Shown piece by piece: positions 970 to 64,000 of a stretch of 64,000 bases of DNA; position 1 is the stretch's first letter; each line of letters starts with the position of its first letter. The stretch is from NCBI GenBank assembly GCA_964016885.1, contig OZ024745.1, forward strand, positions 13,578,001 to 13,642,000, in the 5' to 3' direction. The stretch is from Eledone cirrhosa. Taxonomy: Eukaryota. The translations under genes and the position numbers were made by a program. The notes under the pieces were generated by a model. It was given only the letters and a program-made list of their open reading frames with translations. It was not told where the DNA came from and made no database searches.

Positions 970-2117
970 TTAGAAAGGTCCGAATTTTAGGGCATTGAGT
1001 ACTGGTTGAAATTTATTGATGAAATGTGTTTCCTTATTGGTATGTTGGATGAAAGTAGCGTTGTCTATGAATTTGTAAATGGGGAAAATTTTAAAGTTTG
1101 GAAGTTGGTTGAGAGCACAGTTGGAGATATGTTCACTAAATGCAATCTTTCTGTATTCCTGTATTTTAATTTGTGATTTATGGACTTTATAGTGCTCTAG
1201 ACAACATGAGCAAGTCAAAACATAGATAAGGTTTTCAGATGCACATGTAAACTTATGTTTAACTGTGAAACGCCCTTGTTTAAAATGGAATGTTGAACCT
1301 TCTATTAGATTTATGCATATGCCACAGTTGGGCCTTCCGCATTTTGTTACTGTAGGGTTTGTTGTGAGGGTTGGTTGGATTTTGGCTTGTGTGAGGATGT
1401 TTTTTATGGATTTAGGTTGTCTTTTGCTCTTTATGATGTTGTGTGTTTGGAGGATATTGTTCATTCTTGGGTCTCTTTTTAGTAAAGGAATGTTCTGGAG
1501 AATGGTGTCGAATGCCTCATTGTTGAGGGGATTGTGTGTGGAGATGTATGGTAGAGTTTTTTTGTTGCGGTTCACTCCTGGGTTTGGGGTGTCTGAGTTC
1601 CTGGATGTCTAGTTTTAGGGCACGTTGGAATCCATTGGTGATTAGGGATGGTGGGTAGTTTCTGCTGATAAGTGTGTTTTTTTAATCATTCTAGTCGTGT
1701 GTAGCATGTGTATTTATCTGAAACTATTGTGTAGATCCTTCTGGCTAAGTTATAAGGAATTGCCATTTTGGTATGGCAAGGGTGGCACGAGTTAAATGTA
1801 AGATATTGTTTGGAGTCTGTGGATTTGTAGTATATGTCTGTTTCTATTTTGTTGTTTGTTTTCTTGATGAGGATGTCGAGGAAAGGGAGTTGTTTATGGC
1901 TGTAATCCATTGTAAATTGTAAATTTGTGTTGAGTCCATTTAGAAGGGTTTTAAACTCAATCAGTCTTTCTATACTTTCATGCCAGAGGATGGAGCAGTC
2001 GTCCAGATATCTCTTCCCGATTTTTTCTATGTGTTGGTAGAAGTGGTTACCGTATTTGTCTAGGACTTTGCGGTAGAGAGTGGTTTCCAAATATCCCATG
2101 ACAAGGTTGGCGTATGA
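970..2117 (-). mobile_element. Penelope-like retroelement (Neptune-type), 5'-truncated and decayed: RT C-terminus plus GIY-YIG endonuclease
   Basis: PSYANLVMGYLE...RYLDDC...LPFLDI...YYKSTD...SCHP (ORF 1686-2099). Linker CGRPNCGIC, FTCASENLIYVLTC and C-terminal FQPVLN (ORF 970-1575). Frameshifted, and the YIG segment is deleted. Confidence 0.9.
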
Positions 2118-4866: not shown

Positions 4867-4900
<34 letters not shown>

Positions 4901-4904
<4 letters not shown>

Positions 4905-5028
4905 ATACTTTGGGAGGGTCATGTTGCCAATAAGAAACACACGCACCAGTTGCTTTCACTTCAATTTATTATAATAAATTTATAATAAATTTATAAATTT
5001 ATAAATTTATAAATTTCTGGTTGGTTGG
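4901..5028 (-). mobile_element. Inverted copy of the 3' end of the HHR module at 50140-50523
   Basis: Reverse complement of ~50400-50523, abutting (TA)n. A third partial copy lies at 52853-52891. Confidence 0.8.
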
Positions 5029-5189
5029 CAATAAACATAAAAGAATTACAACCAAAATTAAATAGAAAATATGAGTGGAACTGCAACATCACAACTTACA
5101 ATTAAGGACAAAATGAAAACACACACACACATAGAACAAACAACCAACCACTAACATGTAAATAAATAAATAAATAAATAAATAAATAT

Positions 5190-5270
5190 AAACACACACA
5201 GACACCCGGATGTGGCACATGCGCAGACTGAGCACACAACACACACACAGAAACAAAATGGCGTAGGACA
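5190..5270 (+). promoter_or_regulatory. Putative promoter cassette (ETS-like, NRF1-like and YY1 motifs) upstream of a hammerhead
   Basis: ccggatgtg 5206-5214, gcacatgcgc, aaaatggcg 5255-5263. Direct copy at 50207-50290. Confidence 0.45.
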
Positions 5271-5305
5271 GAACAACCCCTCAATCTATCTTATTTCTCA
5301 TTCTT

Positions 5306-5341
5306 TCTTCTGATGAAGGACTAGCATCTGAAACGTTAAGA
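5306..5341 (+). ncRNA. Minimal type I hammerhead ribozyme motif
   Basis: tctt-CTGATGA-a-gga-ctagca-tct-GAAA-cgtt-aaga. Stem I is tctt/aaga and the palindromic AACGTT replaces stem III, as in PLE minimal HHRs. Confidence 0.7.
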
Positions 5342-5425
5342 CCCTCTTCCTGTTATATCAAGCGTTAACCTAATATATCTCTTCCATATACTGTACCGAT
5401 TGTGTTGTTATTTCTGTTTACCTTT

Positions 5426-5519
<94 letters not shown>

Positions 5520-5630: not shown

Positions 5631-7484
<1,854 letters not shown>

Positions 7485-7507
7485 TATATATATATATATA
7501 TATATAT

Positions 7508-13150: not shown

Positions 13151-16100
13151 CATGATGGCTGCAAACTCTGCCAAGAGTATTGCAATCGCTTGTCAGATTC
13201 GGATGTGTGACGCTCGGATAGGGCTTTGCAAGCCTGCTAGAGACTTGCACTCTTTCACACAGTGACGACAACTATGGACCTCCCTGGCTTGAGGTCCCGC
13301 CCGCATCAGGGTGCCCGTGAACCCTCACAACACCGTGGAGATCATAGTTCACTGGTTCTCTTTGAACATGGCTGCGATTGTGGCTCCTGAGACCAGATTT
13401 GCTCAAGTAAACTTTTCCACACTCAGGGTACTTCAATTCAATGGAGACACCGATCGTTTAGAGAGATACACCAGGGCATTGCCTACGCCCATCCGGTTGG
13501 ATCTTCTCGTGCTCTATGCGTCTGTCCTCAAAATTATGGACCCCATCATTCACCATTCCACGCCAAGTTTCTCTTTCAAGAGCTTCTATCTCCCAGTCAG
13601 CCATCATCAAACCAGTTATTTTCAATGAGTCCTTTACATAATCCTTCAATCGGAGCCTTGGTTTGTGAGGTGGTCTCTTACCCTCACAAATCTCGCCATA
13701 GAAGAGTTGTTTTTGGATTCGATCATCCTCCATTCTGCAGAGGTGTCCGGTACATTGCAAACGCCGTTGATGGATGATACTCTCAATGCTCCGACACTCA
13801 CTTCTCTCAAGGACCTCAACATCACTCACATGCATCTGCCACTTGATACCAAGCATCTTTCTGAGACACTACTGGTGAAACCGTTGCAGTCTATGGATAT
13901 GCCGTTTGTAGGCAACCCATGTCTCACATGCATACAGCAAAGCTGACAGTACACATGCAGCATACACTCTCACCTTGGTCCTCATTGTGATTCCTCACTT
14001 ACACCAAGGACGGTCGTTGAGCCTTCCAAATGACTCACTTGCCTTACTAACACGTAGACCAACTTCTGCATCCAGAGAGCAGGTCACACTCAGAGTACTG
14101 CCCAAATACACAAATGTGTCAGCAGCCTTCAGCTTTTGACCGTATACGTATGGAGGGTCCATTGAAAATTTTATCCGGAGCAGGTTGGTACATGAAGACA
14201 GTCTCGTCAGACTGATTGTCTGTCCCAAAGCACTGCACGCATTGGAAAAAGAATCCATAAGGTGGTGCATGTCACTCTGGGAGTGTGCAAAGAGATCACA
14301 TGCATCTGCATATACAAATTCTCTGATCAAGGTACTCAGTACCTTAGTGTTGGCAGTGAGACGCCTAAGGTTAAACAGCTTGCCGGAAGTGCGGTATCTG
14401 AGATAGATACTGAGATAGATATTCTATTGACAATCCCTGAAGGCCATGAAGAAAACCATTGCGAAATACAAGGCAAACAAAGCTGGTTCAGGTATATCAC
14501 CCTGCTTGACACCATTTTCAACCGAGATTGGCTCAGACAGTTTACCTCCAACATTCACCCATGCCTGCATGTCATTGTGGGAGAGTTTCAGAATGTTCAC
14601 AAACTTTTCAGGACAGCCCAATCTCTCCAAAATAACCCACAAAGCCTTCCGAATAACGGTGTCAAATGCCTTGGTCAGATCGACAAAAACTTGGTATAAG
14701 TCGATGCGCTGCTCAATGCATTTCTCTTGAAGTTGTTTGGCCGAGAAGATCATGTCAACAGTGCCTCTGCCATTCCTAAAGCCACAGTGGGACTCAGGAA
14801 GTACCTCAACAGCAATGTGCTGTATCAATATGTCCAACAATATCCTGCGCAAGATCTTCCCAGCCACAGATAGCAGTGAAATACCTCTGTAGTTGTCACA
14901 GTCATCTTTGGCTCCCTTTCCATTGTAAAGTACCACCATCAATGCATCTTTCCAGTCCTGTGGCACATCTCCATTCCAAACATTCACAAAGCGATCAGTG
15001 AGGCGGTTTAAGAAGTTATCACCAGCACACTTGAAAATCTCGGCACTCAGTCCATCCATTCCAGGTGACTTGCCGCTGTTTAATTTGGCAATGGCCTTCG
15101 CCACCTCATCAAATGAAGGAGGATCAGCCATTGCCAGCTTTGTAGGTCTGGATGGAATCGACCGGATGAACTCATCATCAATTTCTGATGGTCTGTTGAG
15201 AAGCTCATCAAAGTGGTCATGCCACCTGATCAGGATTTCCTTCGGATCTCTGAGCAATTCCTTGCCGTACCCGGAGCGAAGTGGTGATATTTGCGAACCG
15301 GTCGGACCATATACCTCCCTGAGCAGACTGTATAGGAGCTTTGTATGATGTCATCTGAGGCCTTCTGGATTTCATCATCCTTTTGGCTCCACCAGGTATC
15401 CTGCATGACTCCCAATCGATGTTGCACACGTGCCTTGATCTGCCTGAAGGTCCGGTCACTCCTGTCAGAACGTGTCTCACACAACAATGATGTCAGCACT
15501 TTTTTTTTCTCTTCAAGCAAGGTCTGGATCATTGAATCATTTTCATCGAACCAGTCTTTATGCTTTCTATTAGTATGACCCAAAACTCCAGCACTAACAT
15601 GATAGACGGTTTTCTTCAATGATTCCCAAGCATTTTCACATTCCATGGACTCAAGGGACCTCAACCGCTCAGTTCTGACTTTCTCTGTTTTCAGACGAGC
15701 CACGTTTAGTTGTTTTCGAAGTGCAACCTTCTTCCCCCTTATTTTGGGCTTCACAACAAATTGAAATTTGGCACGCACCAAACGATGATCAGTCCAACAT
15801 TCCGCGCCTCGCAATACACGAACCAATGTGATATCCCTGATATCACGTTTTCTCGTTAAAACGAAGTCAATAAGACCTGGATGCATCCAAGTTGTCTTAT
15901 ATTTGTCTTTCTGCTGAAAGGGCGTGTTCCCAGCAACAAGATCCATCTCAGTGTACATCTGCAACAGAAGTTGACATTTGTTATTGCACTTACCTACTCC
16001 ATGCCTGCCCATCACACTCCAAGCTTCCCAGTCATTACCAACACGTGCATTAAAATCACGAAGGATGACAATCTTGTCTGCATAAGGTATACCATGGATG

Positions 16101-16592
16101 ACCTCTCTCAAAGACATGTAGAAACTTAGTTTTTCATCATCACTGGCACACATAGTAGGAGCGTACACACTGACCAGAGTCACAAAGCGGTTTTGAATCA
16201 GAGGGACTCTCATGGACATTATCCGATCATTGAATCTAGAAGGAAGATTTTCCAGCTTTGAGACGATTCCATTCCTGATAGCAAATGCGACCCCTGCCTC
16301 TCTCCTACAACCCTCTGCTCCACCACTCCAATAGAAGCTATATCCTCCCTTCTGTTCTGTGAATTGACTCTCACCTGCCAATCTCGTTTCTGAAAGAGAA
16401 CGATGTCCATCCTATAGCGATTGAGTTCCCTCGACACCAAAGCAGATCTTCTCTCAGGGTGAGTTTTACTGGACTGGGAATCCAGTAAAGTTCTTACATT
16501 CCAGCATCCAATATTCAGAGGTTTGAACCTCCTTGCAGTTGTAGGATGACGACCGGGTCCACGCTGCGGTGCCATGGGACACCTGCCGGCCC
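13151..16592 (-). mobile_element. RTE-clade LINE, near-complete ORF, frameshifted (APE endonuclease, RT, two C2H2-like fingers)
   Basis: GCWNVRTL, SVYAPT, DFNARVG, TDHRLV (APE). KSPGMDG, NYRGISLL, GFR.GRGT.DMIF, DLTKAFDTV, GVKQG, YADACD (RT). RIQKQLFYGE. Ends gcagccatcatg(tatg)n. Confidence 0.95.
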
Positions 16593-49491: not shown

Positions 49492-49560
49492 TAAAAAGTA
49501 AACGACACAGTTTGAAGAAATATATTACCGTAGTTTAACGCCTGAAATAACAAGAAAAGC

Positions 49561-49597
49561 GTCTTAACGTTTCGGACATTAGTACCTCATCAGCAAA
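49561..49597 (-). ncRNA. Minimal hammerhead motif in a pLTR homologous to 5306-5428
   Basis: Minus strand reads CTGATGA-gg-tactaatgt-cc-GAAA-cgtt-aagac, and its downstream sequence aligns to 5338-5428. Stem I is degenerate. Confidence 0.6.
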
Positions 49598-49971
49598 TAG
49601 AGTGAGAAATAAAAGATGAAATAGAAAGATAGAGAGTAAGAAGAGGGTGGGACGGAAAAAAATGAGAAAAAAACAAACGTGCATATTCAGTCACCCACTT
49701 TGGATATATATATACACACAAATGAATATATGAGGGATGAACATCTATACAATTATACATGTGTTCGAAATGCAAAAGACCAAGTTAGCTAGATAGAAAA
49801 ATACTAATTTAACATAATATGGTTTGCCTGTCTCGATTTAAAATAATAAATCAATAAAAATAACAAACCTATATTGGCAATGGCCGTGATACCCGGAAAA
49901 ATTCTAAATTTGTGAAAGTTACTATTCCTGTGCTCTTCTGCGGGTATCCAGGAAAATGCGTATCAATCAGA

Positions 49972-50137
49972 ATACTTAAGAAGACTGAGAAATACGTATT
50001 GTTGAACGCACATGTGTCCCACCGCCTAACTCGTCCCATAGCCGTGCCGCTAAAAATAGCGGCACGGCTATGGGACGAGTTAGGCGGTGGGACACATGTG
50101 CGTTCAACAATACGTATTTCTCAGTCTTCTTAAGTAT
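49972..50137. repeat. Perfect palindrome, 81-bp arms, 4-nt loop
   Basis: 49972-50052 is the exact reverse complement of 50057-50137; loop aaaa. Confidence 0.97.
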
Positions 50138-50206
50138 ATATATATATTTCTTAAGTATATATATATATTTCGTTTCTGAATAAATAGAAAAATAGAAAAA
50201 TGAACA

Positions 50207-50290
50207 CAAACACACACAGACACCCGGATGTGGCGCATGCGCAAACTGAGCACGCAACCCACACACAAACAAAATGGCGTAGGATAGAAG
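50207..50290 (+). promoter_or_regulatory. Putative promoter cassette (ETS-like, NRF1 and YY1 motifs)
   Basis: ccggatgtg 50224-50232, gcgcatgcgc 50233-50242, aaaatggcg 50271-50279. Confidence 0.5.
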
Positions 50291-50325
50291 AAAGGAAAGG
50301 CACAGAAACGAAGAAAGAAATCCCC

Positions 50326-50370
50326 AGTCACTGAAGAGGTCACAGAGTGTGTGACGAAAGAACTATGACT
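50326..50370 (+). ncRNA. Type I hammerhead ribozyme, intact core
   Basis: agtca-CTGAAGA-g-gtcaca-gagtg-tgtgac-GAAA-g-aa-c-TA-tgact. Stem I 5 bp, stem II 6 bp, minimal stem III, CUA cleavage triplet. Confidence 0.85.
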
Positions 50371-50519
50371 ATATATATATAAACAACTATCTGGTTGTGG
50401 AACCAACCAACCAACCAGAAATTTATAAATTTGTAAATTTATAAATATATATTAAATTAAATTGAAGTGAAAGCAACTGGTGCGTGTGTTTCTTATTGGC
50501 AACGACCCTCCCAAAGTAT

Positions 50520-50573
<54 letters not shown>

Positions 50574-51949: not shown

Positions 51950-52736
51950 TAATGAAAAATTGAACAGGGACAGAACAGAGAGGCAGTACAATAAATGTTT
52001 ATTAAATTCACGCCCAGGAGAGTGGGGGGTAGGTGGGGGACGACGTTTCGGGCATAAGCCCTTCTTCAGGTGAGAGTTCAAAAGGTGTGTAGGGGAGTGG
52101 TGGAGAGACATATAGCGAAAGGAAACGGTGCGAATGAAAAATTAACAAATAAAGACAAAAATATAATAAATAATAAATAAAAATAAAGCATGATCAAAAT
52201 ACAAGGAATGAGAAAATTTAAAAATAAAGGCATGATCAAAATAAACTGAAATTAAAAGGGGGGTAAACAGGTGGTGGAAGGGTGTGGGGTGAGTAGAGGT
52301 GGTAGGCAGAGACGGGGAAAAGGGAAAAAGAAACAGAAAAACGTAGGGAGGGGGGGAGTAAACACCGGAAAATTAAAGACAAAAAATCATAAAGGAAATA
52401 ACACAGGCGATCGTGAACAAAACATCATAGAAATATCATAAAGGTAATAACACAGGCGATCGTGAACAAAAAATCATAGAAATACAATTGTAAGAACACA
52501 GGCAAAGAATCATATACGGGAAAAAAAGGGGTACGGTAACAAAATCAAACAGAGGTAATGCGTGGAAGGAAAGACAAAGTGTGGGAAGGTGTGTAAAGTT
52601 CGGAGAAAGGTCACGGCGGATTAGATCGGGGTTGAGCCGGTTGTTAAGTTAAGTTCCAAGGATGGAGGTCGTGTGAGTGTGTGTTATGTATAATGAAAAA
52701 TTGAACAGGGACAGAACAGAGAGGCAGTACGATAAA

Positions 52737-57743: not shown

Positions 57744-60700
57744 ACAGAGACACTCTCTCGTCCTGGTAAAAGAGGTGTAGAGACAGTAGAGATTGCTGGG
57801 GACATCAAGGAATAAACAGAGACACTCTCTCGTCCTGGTAAAAGAGGTGTAGGGACAGCAAGAGATTGCTGTGGACATCAAGGAATAAACAGAGACACTC
57901 TCTCGTCCTGGTAAAAGAGGTGTAGGGACAGCAAGAGATTGCTGTGGACATCAAGGAATAAACAGAGACACTCTCTCGTCCTGGTAAAAGAGGTGTAGGG
58001 ACAGCAAGAGATTGCTGTGGACATCAAGGAATAAACAGAGACACTCTCTCGTCCTGGTAAAAGAGTTGTAGGGACAGCAGTGATTGCTGGGGACATCAAG
58101 GAATAAACAGATACACTCTCTCGTCCTGGTAAAAGGGGTGTAGGGACAGTAGAGATTGCTGGGGACATCAAGGAATAAACAGATACACTCTCTCGTCCTG
58201 GTAAAAGGGGTGTAGGGACAGTAGAGATTGCTGGGGACATCAAGGAATAAACAGATACACTCTCTCGTCCTGGTAAAAGGGGTGTAGGGACAGCAGTGAT
58301 TGCTGGGGACATCAAGGAATAAACAGATACACTCTCTCGTCCTGGTAAAAGGGGTGTAGGGACAGTAGAGATTGCTGGGGACATCAAGGAATAAACAGAT
58401 ACACTCTCTCGTCCTGGTAAAAGGGGTGTAGGGACAGCAGTGATTGCTGGGGACATCAAGGAATAAACAGAAACACTCTCTCGTCCTGGTAAAAGAGTTG
58501 TAGGAAGAGCAGAGATTGCTGGGGACATCAAGGAATAAACAGAGACACTCTCTCGTCCTGGTAAAAGAGTTGTAGGAAGAGCAGAGATTGCTGGGGACAT
58601 CAAGGAATAAACAGAGACACTCTCTCGTCCTGGTAAAAGAGGTGTAGGAAGAGCAGAGATTGCTGGGGACATCAAGGAATAAACAGAAACACTCTCTCGT
58701 CCTGGTAAAAGAGTTGTAGGAAGAGCAGAGATTGCTGGGGACATCAAGGAATAAACAGAGACACTCTCTCGTCCTGGTAAAAGAGGTGTAGGAAGAGCAG
58801 AGATTGCTGGGGACATCAAGGAATAAACAGATACACTCTCTCGTCCTGGTAAAAGAGGTGTAGGGACAGCAGAGATTGCTGGGGACATCAAGGAATAAAC
58901 AGAGACACTCTCTCGTCCTGGTAAAAGAGGTGTAGGGACAGTAGAGATTGCTAGGGACATCAAGGAATAAACAGAGACACTCTCTCGTCCTGGTAAAAGA
59001 GGTGTAGGGACAGCAGAGATTGCTGGGGACATCAAGGAATAAACAGAGACACTCTCTCGTCCTGGTAAAAGAGGTGTAGGAAGAGCAGAGATTGCTGGGG
59101 ACATCAAGGAATAAACAGAAACACTCTCTCGTCCTGGTAAAAGAGTTATAGGAAGAGCAGAGATTGCTGGGGACATCAAGGAATAAACAGAGACACTCTC
59201 TCGTCCTGGTAAAAGAGGTGTAGGGACAGTAGAGATTGTTGGGGACATCAAGGAATAAACAGAGACACTCTCTCATCCAGGTAAAAGAGTTGTAGGAACA
59301 GCAAAGATTGCTGGGGACATCAAGGAATAAACAGAGACACTCTCTCGTCCTGGTAAAAGAGGTGTAGGGACAGTAGAGATTGCTGGGTACATCAAGGAAT
59401 AAACATACACACTCTCTCATCCTGGTAAAAGAGTTGTAGGAACAGCAAAGATTGCTGGGGATATCACGGAATAAACAGAGACACTCTCTCGTCCTGGTAA
59501 AAGAGGTGTAGGGACAGTAGAGATTGCTGGGGACATCAAGGAATAAACAGAGACACTCTCTCGTCCTGGTAAAAGAGGTGTAGGGACAGCAGAGATTGCT
59601 GGGGACATCAAGGAATAAACAGAGACACTCTCTCGTCCTGGTAAAAGAGGTGTAAGGACAGCACAGATTGCTGGGGACATCAAGGAATAAACAGAGACAC
59701 TCTCTCGTCCTGGTAAAAGAGGTGTAGGAAGAGCAGAGATTGCTGGGTACATCAAGGAATAAACAGAGACACTCTCTCGTCCTGGTAAAAGAGGTGTAAG
59801 GACAGCAGAGATTGCTGGGGACATCAAGGAATAAACAGAGACACTCTCTCGTCCTGGTAAAAGAGGTGTAGGGACAGTAGAGATTGCTGGGGACATCAAG
59901 GAATAAACAGAGACACTCTCTCCTCCTGGTAAAAGAGGTGTAGGAAGAGCAGAGATTGCTGGGGACATCAAGGAATAAACAGAGACACCCTCTCGTCCTG
60001 GTAAAAGAGGTGTAGGAAGAGCAGAGATTGCTGGGGACATCAAGGAATAAACAGAGACACTCTCTCGTCCTGGTAAAAGAGGTGTAGGGACAGCAGAGAT
60101 TGTTGGGGACATCAAGGAATAAACAGAGACACTCTCTCGTCCTGGTAAAAGAGGTGTAGGAAGAGCAGATATTGCTGGGGACATCAAGGAATAAACAGAG
60201 ACACTCTCTCGTCCTGGTAAAAGAGGTGTAGGGACAGCAGAGATTGTTGGGGACATCAAGGAATAAACAGAGACACTCTCTCGTCCTGGTAAAAGAGGTG
60301 TAGGAAGAGCAGATATTGCTGGGGACATCAAGGAATAAACAGAGACACTCTCTCGTCCTGGTAAAAGAGGTGTAGGAAGAGCAGAGATTGCTGGGGACAT
60401 CAAGGAATAAACAGAGACAATCTCTCGTCCTGGTAAAAGAGGTGTAGGAACAGCAAAGATTGCTGGGGACATCAAGGAATAAACAGAGACACTCTCTCGA
60501 CCTGGTAAAAGAGGTGAAGGAAGAGCAGAGATTGCTGGGGACATCAAGGAATAAACAGAGACACTCTCTCGTCCTGGTAAAAGAGGTGTAGGGACAGCAC
60601 AGATTGCTGGGGACATCAAGGAATAAACAGAGACACTCTCTCGTCCTGGTAAAAGAGGTGTAAGAACAGCACAGATTACTGGGGACATCAAGGAATAAAC

Positions 60701-63700
60701 AGAGACACTCTCTCGTCCTGGTAAAAGAGGTGTAGGAAGAGCAGAGATTGCTGGGGACATCAAGGAATAAACAGAGACACTCTCTCGTCCTGGTAAAAGA
60801 GGTGTAGGAAGAGCAGAGATTGCTGGGGACATCAAGGAATAAACAGAGACACTCTCTCATCCTGGTAAAAGAGGTGTAGGGACAGCAGAGATTGTTGGGG
60901 ACATCAAGGAATAAACAGAGACACTCTCTCGTCCTGGTAAAAGAGGTGTAGGGACAGCAGAGATTGCTGGGGACATCAAGGAATAAACAGAGACACTCTC
61001 TCGTCCTGGTAAAAGAGGTGTAGGAAGAGCAGAGATTGTTGGGGACATTAAGGAATAAACTGAGACACTCTCTCGTCCTGGTAAAAGAGGTGTAGGGACA
61101 GCAGAGATTGCTGGGGACATCAAGGAATAAGCAGAGACACTCTCTCGTCCTGGTAAAAGAGGTGTAAGAACAGCACAGATTACTGGGGACATCAAGGTAT
61201 AAACAGAGACACTCTCTCGTCCTGGTAAAAGAGGTGTAGGAAGAGCAGAGATTGCTGGGGACATCAAGGAATAAACAGAGACACTCTCTCGTCCTGGAAA
61301 AAGAGGTGTAAGAACAGCACAGATTACTGGGGACATCAAGGAATAAACAGAGACACTCTCTCGTCCTGGTAAAAGAGGTGTAGGAAGAGCAGAGATTGTT
61401 GGGGACATCAAGGAATAAACAGAGACACTCTCTCGTCCTGGTAAAAGAGGTGTAGGGACAGCACAGATTGCTGGGGACATCAAGGAATAAACAGAGACAC
61501 TCTCTCGTCCTGGTAAAAGAGGTGTAGGGACAGTAGATATTGCTGGGGACATCAAGGAATAAACAGAGACACTCTCTCGTCCTGGTAAAAGAGGTGTAAG
61601 GACAGCAGAGATTGCTGGGGACATCAAGGAATAAACAAAGACACTCTCTCGTCCTGGTAAAAGAGGTGTAGGGACAGCAGAGATTGCTGGGGACATCAAG
61701 GAATAAACAGAGACACTCTCTCGTCCTGGTAAAAGAGGTGTAGGGACAGCAGAGATTGCTGGGGACATCAAGGAATAAACAGAGACACTCTCTCGTCCTG
61801 GTAAAAGAGGTGTAAGAACAGCACAGATTACTGGGGACATCAAGGAATAAACAGAGACACTCTCTCGTCCTGGTAACAGAGTTGTAGGGACAGTAGAGAT
61901 TGCTGGGGACATCAAGGAATAAACAGAGACACTCTCTCGACCTGGTAAAAGAGGTGAAGGAAGAGCAGAGATTGCTGGGGACATCAAGGAATAAACAGAG
62001 ACACTCTCTCGTCCTGGTAAAAGAGGTGTAGGGACAGCACAGATTGCTGGGGACATCAAGGAATAAACAGAGACACTCTCTCGTCCTGGTAAAAGAGGTG
62101 TAAGAACAGCACAGATTACTGGGGACATCAAGGAATAAAGAGAGACACTCTCTCGTCCTGGTAAAAGAGGTGTAGGAAGAGCAGAGATTGCTGGGGACAT
62201 CAAGGAATAAACAGAGACACTCTCTCGTCCTGGTAAAAGAGGTGTAGGGACAGCAGAGATTGCTGGGGACATCAAGGAATAAACAGAGACACTCTCTCGT
62301 CCTGGTAAAAGAGGTGTAGGAAGAGCAGAGATTGTTGGGGACATCAAGGAATAAACAGAGACACTCTCTCGTCCTGGTAAAAGAGGTGTAGGGACAGCAG
62401 AGATTGCTGGGGACATCAAGGAATAAACAGAGACACTCTCTCCTCCTGGTAAGAGAGGTGTAGGGAGAGCAGAGATTGCTGGGGACATCAAGGAATAAAC
62501 AGAGACACTCTCTCGTCCTGGTTAAAGAGGTGTAGGCACAGCAGAGATTGCTGGGGACATCAAGGAATAAACAGAGACACTCTCTCGTCTTGGTAAAAGA
62601 GGTGTAGGAAGAGCAAAGATTGCTGGGGACATCAAGGAATAAACAGAGACACTCTCTCGTCCTGGTAAAAGAGGTGTAGGGACAGCAGAGATTGCTGGGG
62701 ACATCAAGGAATAAACAGAGACACTCTCTCGTCCTGGTAAAAGAGGTGTAGGAAGAGCAGAGATTGCTGGGGACATCAAGGAATAAACAGAGACACTCTC
62801 TCATCCTGGTAAAAGAGGTGTAGGAAGAGCAGAGTTTGCTGGGGACATCAAGGAATAAACAGAGACACTCTCTCGTCCTGGTAAAAGAGGTGTAGGAAGA
62901 GCACAGATTGCTGGGGACATCAAGGAATAAACAGATACACTCTCTCGTCCTGGTAAAAGGGGTGTAGGGACAGCAGAGATTGCTGGGGACATCAAGGAAT
63001 AAACAGAGACAATCTCTCGTCTTGGTAAAAGAGGTGTAGGAAGAGCAGAGATTGCTGGTGACATCAAGGAATAAACAGAGATACACTCTCGTCCTGGTAA
63101 AAGAGGTGTAGGAAGAGCAACGATTGCTGGCGACATCAAGGAATAAACAGAGACGCTCTCTCTTCCTGGTAAAAGAGGTGTAGGGACAGCAGAGATTGCT
63201 GGGGACATCAAAGAATAAACAGAGACACTCTCTCGTCCTGGTAAAAGAGTTGTAGGGACAGTAGAGATTGCTGTGGACATCAAGGAATAAACAGAGACAC
63301 TCTCTCGTCCTGGTAGAAGAGGTGTAGGAAGAGGAGAGATTGCTGGGGACATCAAGGAATAAACAGAGACACTCTCTCGTCCTGGTAAAAGAGGTGTAGT
63401 GACAGTACAGATTGCTGGGGACATCAAGGAATAAACAGAGACACTCTCTCCTCCTGGTAAAAGAGGTGTAGGAAGAGCAGAGATTGCAGGGGGCATCAAG
63501 GAATAAACAGAGACACCCTCTCGTCCTGGTAAAAGAGGTGTAGGAAGAGCAGAGATTGCTGGGGACATCAAGGAATAAACAGAGACACTCTCTCGTCCTG
63601 GTAAAAGAGGTGTAGGGACAGCAGAGATTGTTGGGGACATCAAGGAATAAACAGAGACACTCTCTCGTCCTGGTAAAAGAGGTGTAGGAAGAGCAGATAT

Positions 63701-64000
63701 TGCTGGGGACATCAAGGAATAAACAGAGACACTCTCTCGTCCTGGTAAAAGAGGTGTAGGGACAGCAGAGATTGTTGGGGACATCAAGGAATAAACAGAG
63801 ACACTCTCTCGTCCTGGTAAAAGAGGTGTAGGAAGAGCAGATATTGCTGGGGACATCAAGGAATAAACAGAGACACTCTCTCGTCCTGGTAAAAGAGGTG
63901 TAGGAAGAGCAGAGATTGCTGGGGACATCAAGGAATAAACAGAGACAATCTCTCGTCCTGGTAAAAGAGGTGTAGGAACAGCAAAGATTGCTGGGGACAT
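57744..64000. repeat. 72-bp satellite array (~87 units, runs off the window end)
   Basis: Unit acagagacactctctcgtcctggtaaaagaggtgtagggacagcagagattgctggggacatcaaggaataa. Three 73-bp units occur near the left edge. Confidence 0.98.

What the first reader, a model, noticed from the sequence alone, without database searches (positions are those of the whole stretch)
5190..5428. One ETS/NRF1/YY1 cassette sits upstream of two unrelated hammerhead ribozymes
Seen: an ~80-bp block (ccggatgtg, gc[a/g]catgcgc, aaaatggcg) occurs at 5190 and 50207. Each copy is followed ~50 nt after the YY1 motif by a hammerhead on the same strand. The two ribozymes and their 3' tails share no sequence (CTGATGA/AACGTT type versus CTGAAGA/CUA type). 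Established: these motifs typify TATA-less Pol II promoters, and PLE pLTRs carry promoter plus HHR. Inference: a portable promoter module swapped between PLE or retrozyme-like families, giving tiny self-cleaving transcription units.
Basis: partly seen in the sequence, partly recalled or inferred. Interest (0 to 1): 0.75.

Follow-up and report, generated by a model that had tools for sequence, protein, structure and literature searches.

The report
Penelope promoter end; one-off hybrid junction
The shared block is the tail end, and likely the promoter, of one very abundant Penelope-like jumping gene that carries its own predicted self-cutting RNA, and its pairing with a second ribozyme here is a join found only once in the genome, not a promoter module swapped between families.

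Summary
The block is real, but it is not portable. It is the 3' UTR/pseudo-LTR of one Penelope-like family (F2; 5,748 exact 31-mer copies). All 100 listed copies run on into F2's own 3' end. The other ribozyme belongs to an unrelated Neptune-type family (F1; 8,062 matches); 0 of 30 F1 copies carry the block. The F2|F1 join at 5276/5277 occurs once in 3 Gb.

The promoter idea itself gains support. In tandem F2 the block lies 240-290 nt before the ATG. A sister family (F3, about 58-64% protein identity) keeps the NRF1-like and YY1-like words and a covarying hammerhead but loses the ETS-like word. 5'-truncated copies pile up at the YY1-like word in both families, which likely marks the RNA start. 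The scan already reported this footprint for F2 (e1-9926904); the F3 replicate and the uniqueness of the join are added here. No RNA evidence was obtained. Known kind, modest interest.

The parts
4900..5028 (-). Inverted left arm of an F2 insertion: F2 3' end (short END1 terminus) abutting (TA)n
   Evidence: 91% to 50407-50554 reversed; 96% to L062
5029..5276 (+). F2 piece: last ~25 codons of the GIY-YIG domain (stop at 5103-5105), 3' UTR and the motif block; cut off 22 nt after the start of the YY1-like word
   Evidence: 96% to other F2 copies
5206..5263 (+). ETS-like (5206), NRF1-like (5215, one change) and YY1-like (5255) words; likely promoter, inferred RNA start a few nt before the YY1-like word
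   Evidence: footprint; motif names recalled, not matched to a library
5276..5277 (.). F2|F1 junction, no microhomology, unique in the genome
   Evidence: 1 hit each; loose ends show each parent's own continuation at this point
5277..5428 (+). 5'-truncated 3' end of Neptune-type family F1 with a minimal type I hammerhead (core 5310, two stem II changes, predicted cut after 5337), ending at (TA)n
   Evidence: 97% to L036
5633..7490 (-). Second, longer 5'-truncated F1 copy: RT/thumb, CxxC linker and GIY-YIG in ORF 6374-7243; long 3' UTR without the block; hammerhead partly deleted
50166..50181 (-). Stub of the inverted F2 arm (long END2 terminus) at the left end of the second insertion
50179..50523 (+). 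Ordinary truncated F2 pseudo-LTR: motif block (50224-50279), hammerhead (stem I 50326-50330/50366-50370, core 50331, predicted cut after 50365), ORF start with the ATG damaged, END1 at (TA)n
   Evidence: 99% to L391

Best explanation
The block belongs to the pseudo-LTR of one high-copy Penelope-like retrotransposon family (F2) and is likely its Pol II promoter, while the copy at 5190 is a join to the 3' end of an unrelated family (F1) that occurs once in the genome. Shown: in tandem F2 units the block of the upstream copy lies about 240-290 nt before the ATG of the next copy, with the hammerhead in between. Inferred: NRF1-like and ETS-like sites act upstream, RNA starts a few bases before the YY1-like word, and reverse transcription primed at two internal sites near the ORF start reads through the uncut hammerhead and often runs off at the RNA 5' end. 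This would give the many short copies that begin at the YY1-like word. Inferred for the join: a 5'-truncated F1 copy landed in the (TA)n at F2's right end, and that insertion (or a later deletion) removed F2's own hammerhead and tail.
For: Cassette 31-mer: 5,748 exact matches, reversed control 0. 100 of 100 listed copies continue into F2's 3' end: 97 to END1, 2 with internal deletions, 1 slightly short; none joins F1. GIY-YIG coding sequence lies upstream, and a full pLTR-ORF-pLTR unit of 4,071 bp exists (L062). Join 28-mer with 2 mismatches: 1 hit. YY1-like word plus F1 core at any 20-50 nt spacing: 1 hit. F1: 8,062 matches, 0 of 30 with the block; F1 and F2 proteins align only over 53 aa at 30%. 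Sister family F3: exact NRF1-like word in 16 of 21 long copies, YY1-like in 11 of 21, ETS-like in 0 of 21; identity outside the words 0.60-0.62 against 0.56 for shuffles. Stem II differs between F2 and F3 by two compensatory pairs. 5' ends: F2 11 of 67 at-risk copies end in -14..+4 of the YY1-like word (0 of 300 simulated scans at 19 nt; p 0.01 at 25-30 nt); F3 18 of 39 end in -30..+15 (scan p 0.0025). Summed contig depth doubles across the same spot in run X3. 25 of 27 inverted F2 pairs have exactly one tailed end (counted), as described for PLEs.
Against: No RNA start, chromatin or binding data: the RNA runs were contigs with a share of 0.05-0.06 and showed nothing. The F2 footprint is not significant with the 46-nt window (scan p 0.28), and the narrow window was chosen after seeing the data. 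A second cluster of F2 5' ends lies at +50..+76 (11 copies), so RT stops also arise away from a start site. F3's spacer is an (AAAT)n tract, which blurs end mapping and could itself cause stops. F3 was first found with a pattern holding both words, so relatives lacking them would be missed. Samples are the first 100 hits on one contig. The route of the join cannot be read from sequence.
Confidence: 0.72

Rival explanations
1. Portable ETS/NRF1/YY1 promoter module swapped between unrelated Penelope or retrozyme families.
For: One real F2-block/F1-hammerhead arrangement exists. Two families in this genome share the NRF1-like and YY1-like words.
Against: The arrangement is unique. 100 of 100 block copies are F2 and 0 of 30 F1 copies have the block. 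Of 100 listed hits (of 337 and of 157) of two general YY1-plus-core patterns, 98 each are F2 or F3 by eye; the two others do not form a family. F2 and F3 are sisters, so the sharing is by descent.
Confidence: 0.03
2. The join arose during reverse transcription: the enzyme began on an F1 RNA, copied about 150 nt and switched onto F2 RNA just after the YY1-like word, within one two-armed F2 insertion.
For: The left arm ends in END1 and F2's expected tailed right end is missing. No F2 remainder lies nearby in the window. Both pieces are about 96-97% like their families, so of similar age. The join falls near the inferred RNA start region.
Against: No microhomology and only one case. Both families crowd into (TA)n and other F2/F1 neighbours exist (L037, L053, L054), so nested insertion with deletion suffices.
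Confidence: 0.2
3. The words are not a promoter: they are kept for another reason (RNA signal, enzyme binding) or by chance, and the 5'-end cluster is an RT pause or an alignment effect of the A-rich spacer.
For: The F2 cluster is weak in a wide window, a second cluster lies at the hammerhead, simple-repeat runs of 10-14 nt also match between F2 and F3, and there are no transcript data.
Against: The words were named before F3 was seen and survive where the rest of the UTR is near shuffle level. The cluster recurs in two families with different spacers, and the rate of ends drops to 0.05-0.10 per 100 nt upstream. The position matches where Penelope promoters lie (PMC2377424).
Confidence: 0.25
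4. The join is an assembly error.
For: No listed contig piece bridges 5276/5277 in four runs (most records not shown).
Against: The join is not inside a simple repeat. The runs may be other individuals, and short contigs break at repeats.
Confidence: 0.05

Closest known systems
C-terminal-endonuclease Penelope-like elements of Neptune/Nematis type (Craig et al. 2021, PMC8557442; passages and section 11 read)
   Same: RT followed by a CX2-5CxxC linker and a GIY-YIG domain with CCHH; partial tandems, inverted 5'-truncated arms, a tail at one end, (TA)n targets, hammerhead in the pLTR.
   Different: The F2 tail is about 65 nt rather than 30-40. F2/F3 were not placed in a clade by a tree. No promoter words are described there in the passages read.
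Penelope of Drosophila virilis, pLTR promoter (Schostak et al. 2008, PMC2377424; abstract and Discussion read)
   Same: [quoted passage not shown]
   Different: Shown there by reporter assays, only inferred here. Different motifs, and no intron was looked for here.
[quoted passage not shown]
   Same: Short helix I, an extra base between positions 9 and 10.1, G10.1-C11.1, tiny helix III (palindromic in F1).
   Different: The helix III loop of F2 is not strictly palindromic. Cleavage untested.
Poseidon of Anolis, internal RT initiation (Frangieh et al. 2024, PMC11167929; parts 1-2 of 4 read)
   Same: Two end points inside the ORF start define the tail; uncut RNA is copied.
   Different: Shown in vitro there, inferred from copy ends here. 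The F2 hammerhead lies wholly upstream of the ATG.
YY1 site of human LINE-1 (PMC11602158; passages read)
   Same: A YY1 site at nt 9-20 of the RNA sets where transcription starts; the F2/F3 ends put the YY1-like word at a similar place.
   Different: Unrelated element class with a fully internal promoter; here the upstream words must come from a tandem copy. Binding untested.

Membership tests
EN+ Penelope-like element (F2) | RT followed by C-terminal GIY-YIG endonuclease | tested here: met
   GIY-YIG end; ORF to stop; RVT_1 E 0.001, below Pfam's cut-off; 54 homologues
EN+ Penelope-like element (F2) | Partial tandem forming pLTRs, inverted truncated arm, tail at one end | tested here: met
   L062, L068, L070; 25 of 27 pairs with one tail
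EN+ Penelope-like element (F2) | Hammerhead in the pLTR | tested here: met
   fold; 83 of 100 copies match the full pattern; covariation with F3
Neptune/Nematis clades | CX2-5CxxC linker and CCHH (F1, F2) | tested here: met
   read from translations; definitions
Neptune versus Nematis | RT phylogeny with reference elements | not tested
   no named reference set was fetched; F1 is called Neptune-type from its linker and recalled motifs
Hydra clade | No CCHH, CxCX5C linker, under 3 kb | tested here: not met
   F2 has CCHH and a 4.07-kb unit
Retrozyme / non-coding mini-unit | Non-coding hammerhead-bounded unit with no ORF of its own (recalled) | tested here: not met
   both ribozymes trace to coding elements
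Active hammerhead ribozyme | Self-cleavage at the predicted site | not testable with these tools
   no raw RNA reads available
Pol II promoter with NRF1/YY1/ETS sites | Capped starts near the words; factor binding | tested here: inconclusive
   indirect only: conservation and 5'-end clusters
Portable promoter module | Recurrent linkage to unrelated families | tested here: not met

The most novel reading that the evidence does not exclude
A Penelope lineage uses a host-style NRF1/YY1 promoter in which YY1 fixes the start site just as in human LINE-1, a convergent design kept across two families about 40% apart in protein. The start site is legible from thousands of fossil copy ends, and over 5,700 intact blocks point outward from (TA)n insertions into host DNA.
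Probability: 0.45. Interest if true: 0.5.

Novelty: new member of a known kind. Interest (0 to 1): 0.27.

Why it matters
As a portable module it would have been surprising, but that reading is refuted. What remains is a testable promoter anatomy for a Penelope family. The papers read map a start site only for Drosophila Penelope and one Chlamydomonas element. Copy-end footprints in two sister families predict the start to within about 20-40 nt, and the likeness to the LINE-1 YY1 site would be a case of convergence. Searches for Penelope-like plus NRF1 found 0 papers, and YY1/retrotransposon/start site/Penelope found 1 review of human elements (listing only). The library lacks most subscription papers, so this does not show that it is unpublished.

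Tried and rejected
A DNA search of the genome with the 96-nt block returned nothing because very common words are skipped; patterns were used instead. Rfam gave only microsatellite and palindrome noise in the 150 of 216 rows listed. RNA evidence: 8 runs found, 2 on record as RNA with share 0.05-0.06, all contigs; no start, end or cleavage could be read. No listed contig bridged the junction, which proves nothing. tblastn of the F2 endonuclease over 349 fetched sequences found no relatives below 72% other than F3 and old F2 among the rows printed. L320 and L341 were checked as a possible further YY1-plus-hammerhead family and rejected. A sequence look-up of earlier findings was empty. Rows dropped: in the F3 sample, 96 of 100 listed places were fetched, 95 were distinct, and 91 were used after removing one microsatellite mis-alignment (L307) and three of four tandem duplicates (L245/L247); copies cut by the fetched window were counted as running beyond. 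PMC2715254 passages were read and not used. No supplements were opened; the Repbase family files of PMC8557442 might already hold F1-F3.

Full report
Observation. A self-comparison shows more shared sequence than reported. The block aligns over 116 nt, and the 3' tail of the 50207 copy lies inverted at about 4900-5028, directly upstream of the 5190 copy. The window is on contig C5 of a 3.0-Gb animal genome. The best named homologue of the element's protein is from Octopus vulgaris at 66%, so the host is likely an octopus. The names ETS, NRF1 and YY1 are recalled; no motif library was run.

What the block is. A 31-letter pattern from the block has 5,748 exact matches, with 0 for the reversed control. 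All 100 listed places were fetched. 97 run through the hammerhead seen at 50331 to the same end at (TA)n, 2 reach that end after an internal deletion, 1 stops slightly short, and none joins another family. Upstream lies the end of a GIY-YIG endonuclease with a CX4CxxC linker. L062 holds a full tandem unit of 4,071 bp in which the block is followed by the hammerhead and, 240-290 nt on, by the ATG of the next ORF. Copies end at two points inside the ORF start, about 65 nt apart, and 25 of 27 inverted pairs have one of each (counted). This is the described Penelope architecture. I call the family F2. The 50207 locus is an ordinary truncated F2 insertion, 99% like other copies.

What the other ribozyme is. 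The hammerhead at 5310 belongs to family F1, with 8,062 matches at one mismatch. None of 30 F1 copies has the words within 500 nt upstream, apart from four stray hexamers. A longer F1 copy lies in the window itself at 5633-7490 on the minus strand, with RT, linker and GIY-YIG sequence, and its 740-nt 3' UTR has none of the words. F1 and F2 proteins align only over 53 residues at 30%.

The junction. F2 sequence stops at 5276 and F1 begins at 5277 with no microhomology. Contigs of other runs show each parent's own continuation at exactly this point. The 28-letter join has one match in the genome with two mismatches allowed. The YY1-like word followed at 20-50 nt by the F1 core also has one match, the window. 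Two looser patterns gave 337 and 157 hits; of the 100 listed for each, 98 are F2 or its sister by eye and none is F1. The similar 46 and 51 nt spacing is therefore a coincidence of where the F1 piece was truncated. Both families insert in (TA)n, and other F2/F1 neighbours occur. Insertion with deletion, or a later deletion, is the simplest origin; a template switch is not excluded.

Is the block a promoter? A pattern with both outer words but excluding the F2 spacer gave 27 hits: 18 from a sister family F3, 7 F2 variants and 2 others, one overlapping the ATG of what looks like a host first exon. F3 is about 58-64% identical to F2 in its longer protein matches and has the same ORF start. In an F3 sample anchored at the 3' end, 16 of 21 long copies have the exact NRF1-like word, 11 of 21 the YY1-like word and 0 of 21 the ETS-like word. 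Outside the words, F2 and F3 are 0.60-0.62 identical against 0.56 for shuffles. Older F2 copies keep decayed forms of all three words. Hammerhead stem II differs between F2 and F3 by two compensatory pairs; within each family the free core position 7 varies.

Copy ends. Among 100 F2 copies anchored at the 3' end, 11 begin at -14..+4 of the YY1-like word, and none at -40..-15 or +5..+34. That is significant for windows of 19-30 nt but not for 46 nt (scan p 0.28). Another 11 begin at +50..+76. In F3, 18 of 39 copies that reach the region begin at -30..+15, and only 2 of the remaining 21 end in the next 220 nt (scan p 0.0025). Summed contig depth in run X3 rises from about 0.72 to 1.49 million across the same spot (a rough measure). 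YY1 motifs lie mostly downstream of human start sites, and the LINE-1 site at nt 9-20 sets initiation. The simplest reading is an RNA start just before the YY1-like word, copied through an uncut hammerhead as in Anolis Poseidon. No RNA data could be had.

Verdict. The sequence observation holds with corrections. The portable-module reading is refuted for this pair. The block is a family-specific pLTR segment and likely promoter of a known kind of element, as in Drosophila Penelope. Interest is modest and rests on the promoter anatomy, not on the junction.

Noticed in passing
L037 and L053/L114 (G000:C1:10594510 and 30399474): An old F2-type copy's tail is joined directly to a 5'-truncated F1, inside a block of about 1.5 kb duplicated at 92%; a second kind of F2/F1 join.
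   Followed up: partly
   Followed up: no
window 5277-5428 and 5633-5759: The two tail-to-tail F1 ends differ at only 3 of about 124 aligned bases and share two minority variants; possibly a local inverted duplication or one source.
   Followed up: partly
window 49514-49612 (-) and 52030-52080 (-): Two more hammerhead-like motifs: a diverged F1-like one and a third family, neither with the block upstream in the stretches read.
   Followed up: partly
window 49972-50137: Near-perfect 166-nt palindrome just left of the second F2 copy; its left flank is a repeat seen in other loci.
   Followed up: no
L202 (G000:C1:20196703): NRF1-like word followed by a YY1-like word that overlaps the ATG of an apparent host first exon: the same grammar at a host gene start, one case.
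   Followed up: partly
L245-L249 (G000:C1:34853600-34854890): Five F3 3' ends in tandem at about 313-nt spacing.
   Followed up: no
window 14424-16411 (-); 970-2100 (-); 57865-64000: Endonuclease-plus-RT LINE fragments; another apparent RT/GIY-YIG fragment; a 72-bp tandem array of about 6 kb.
   Followed up: no
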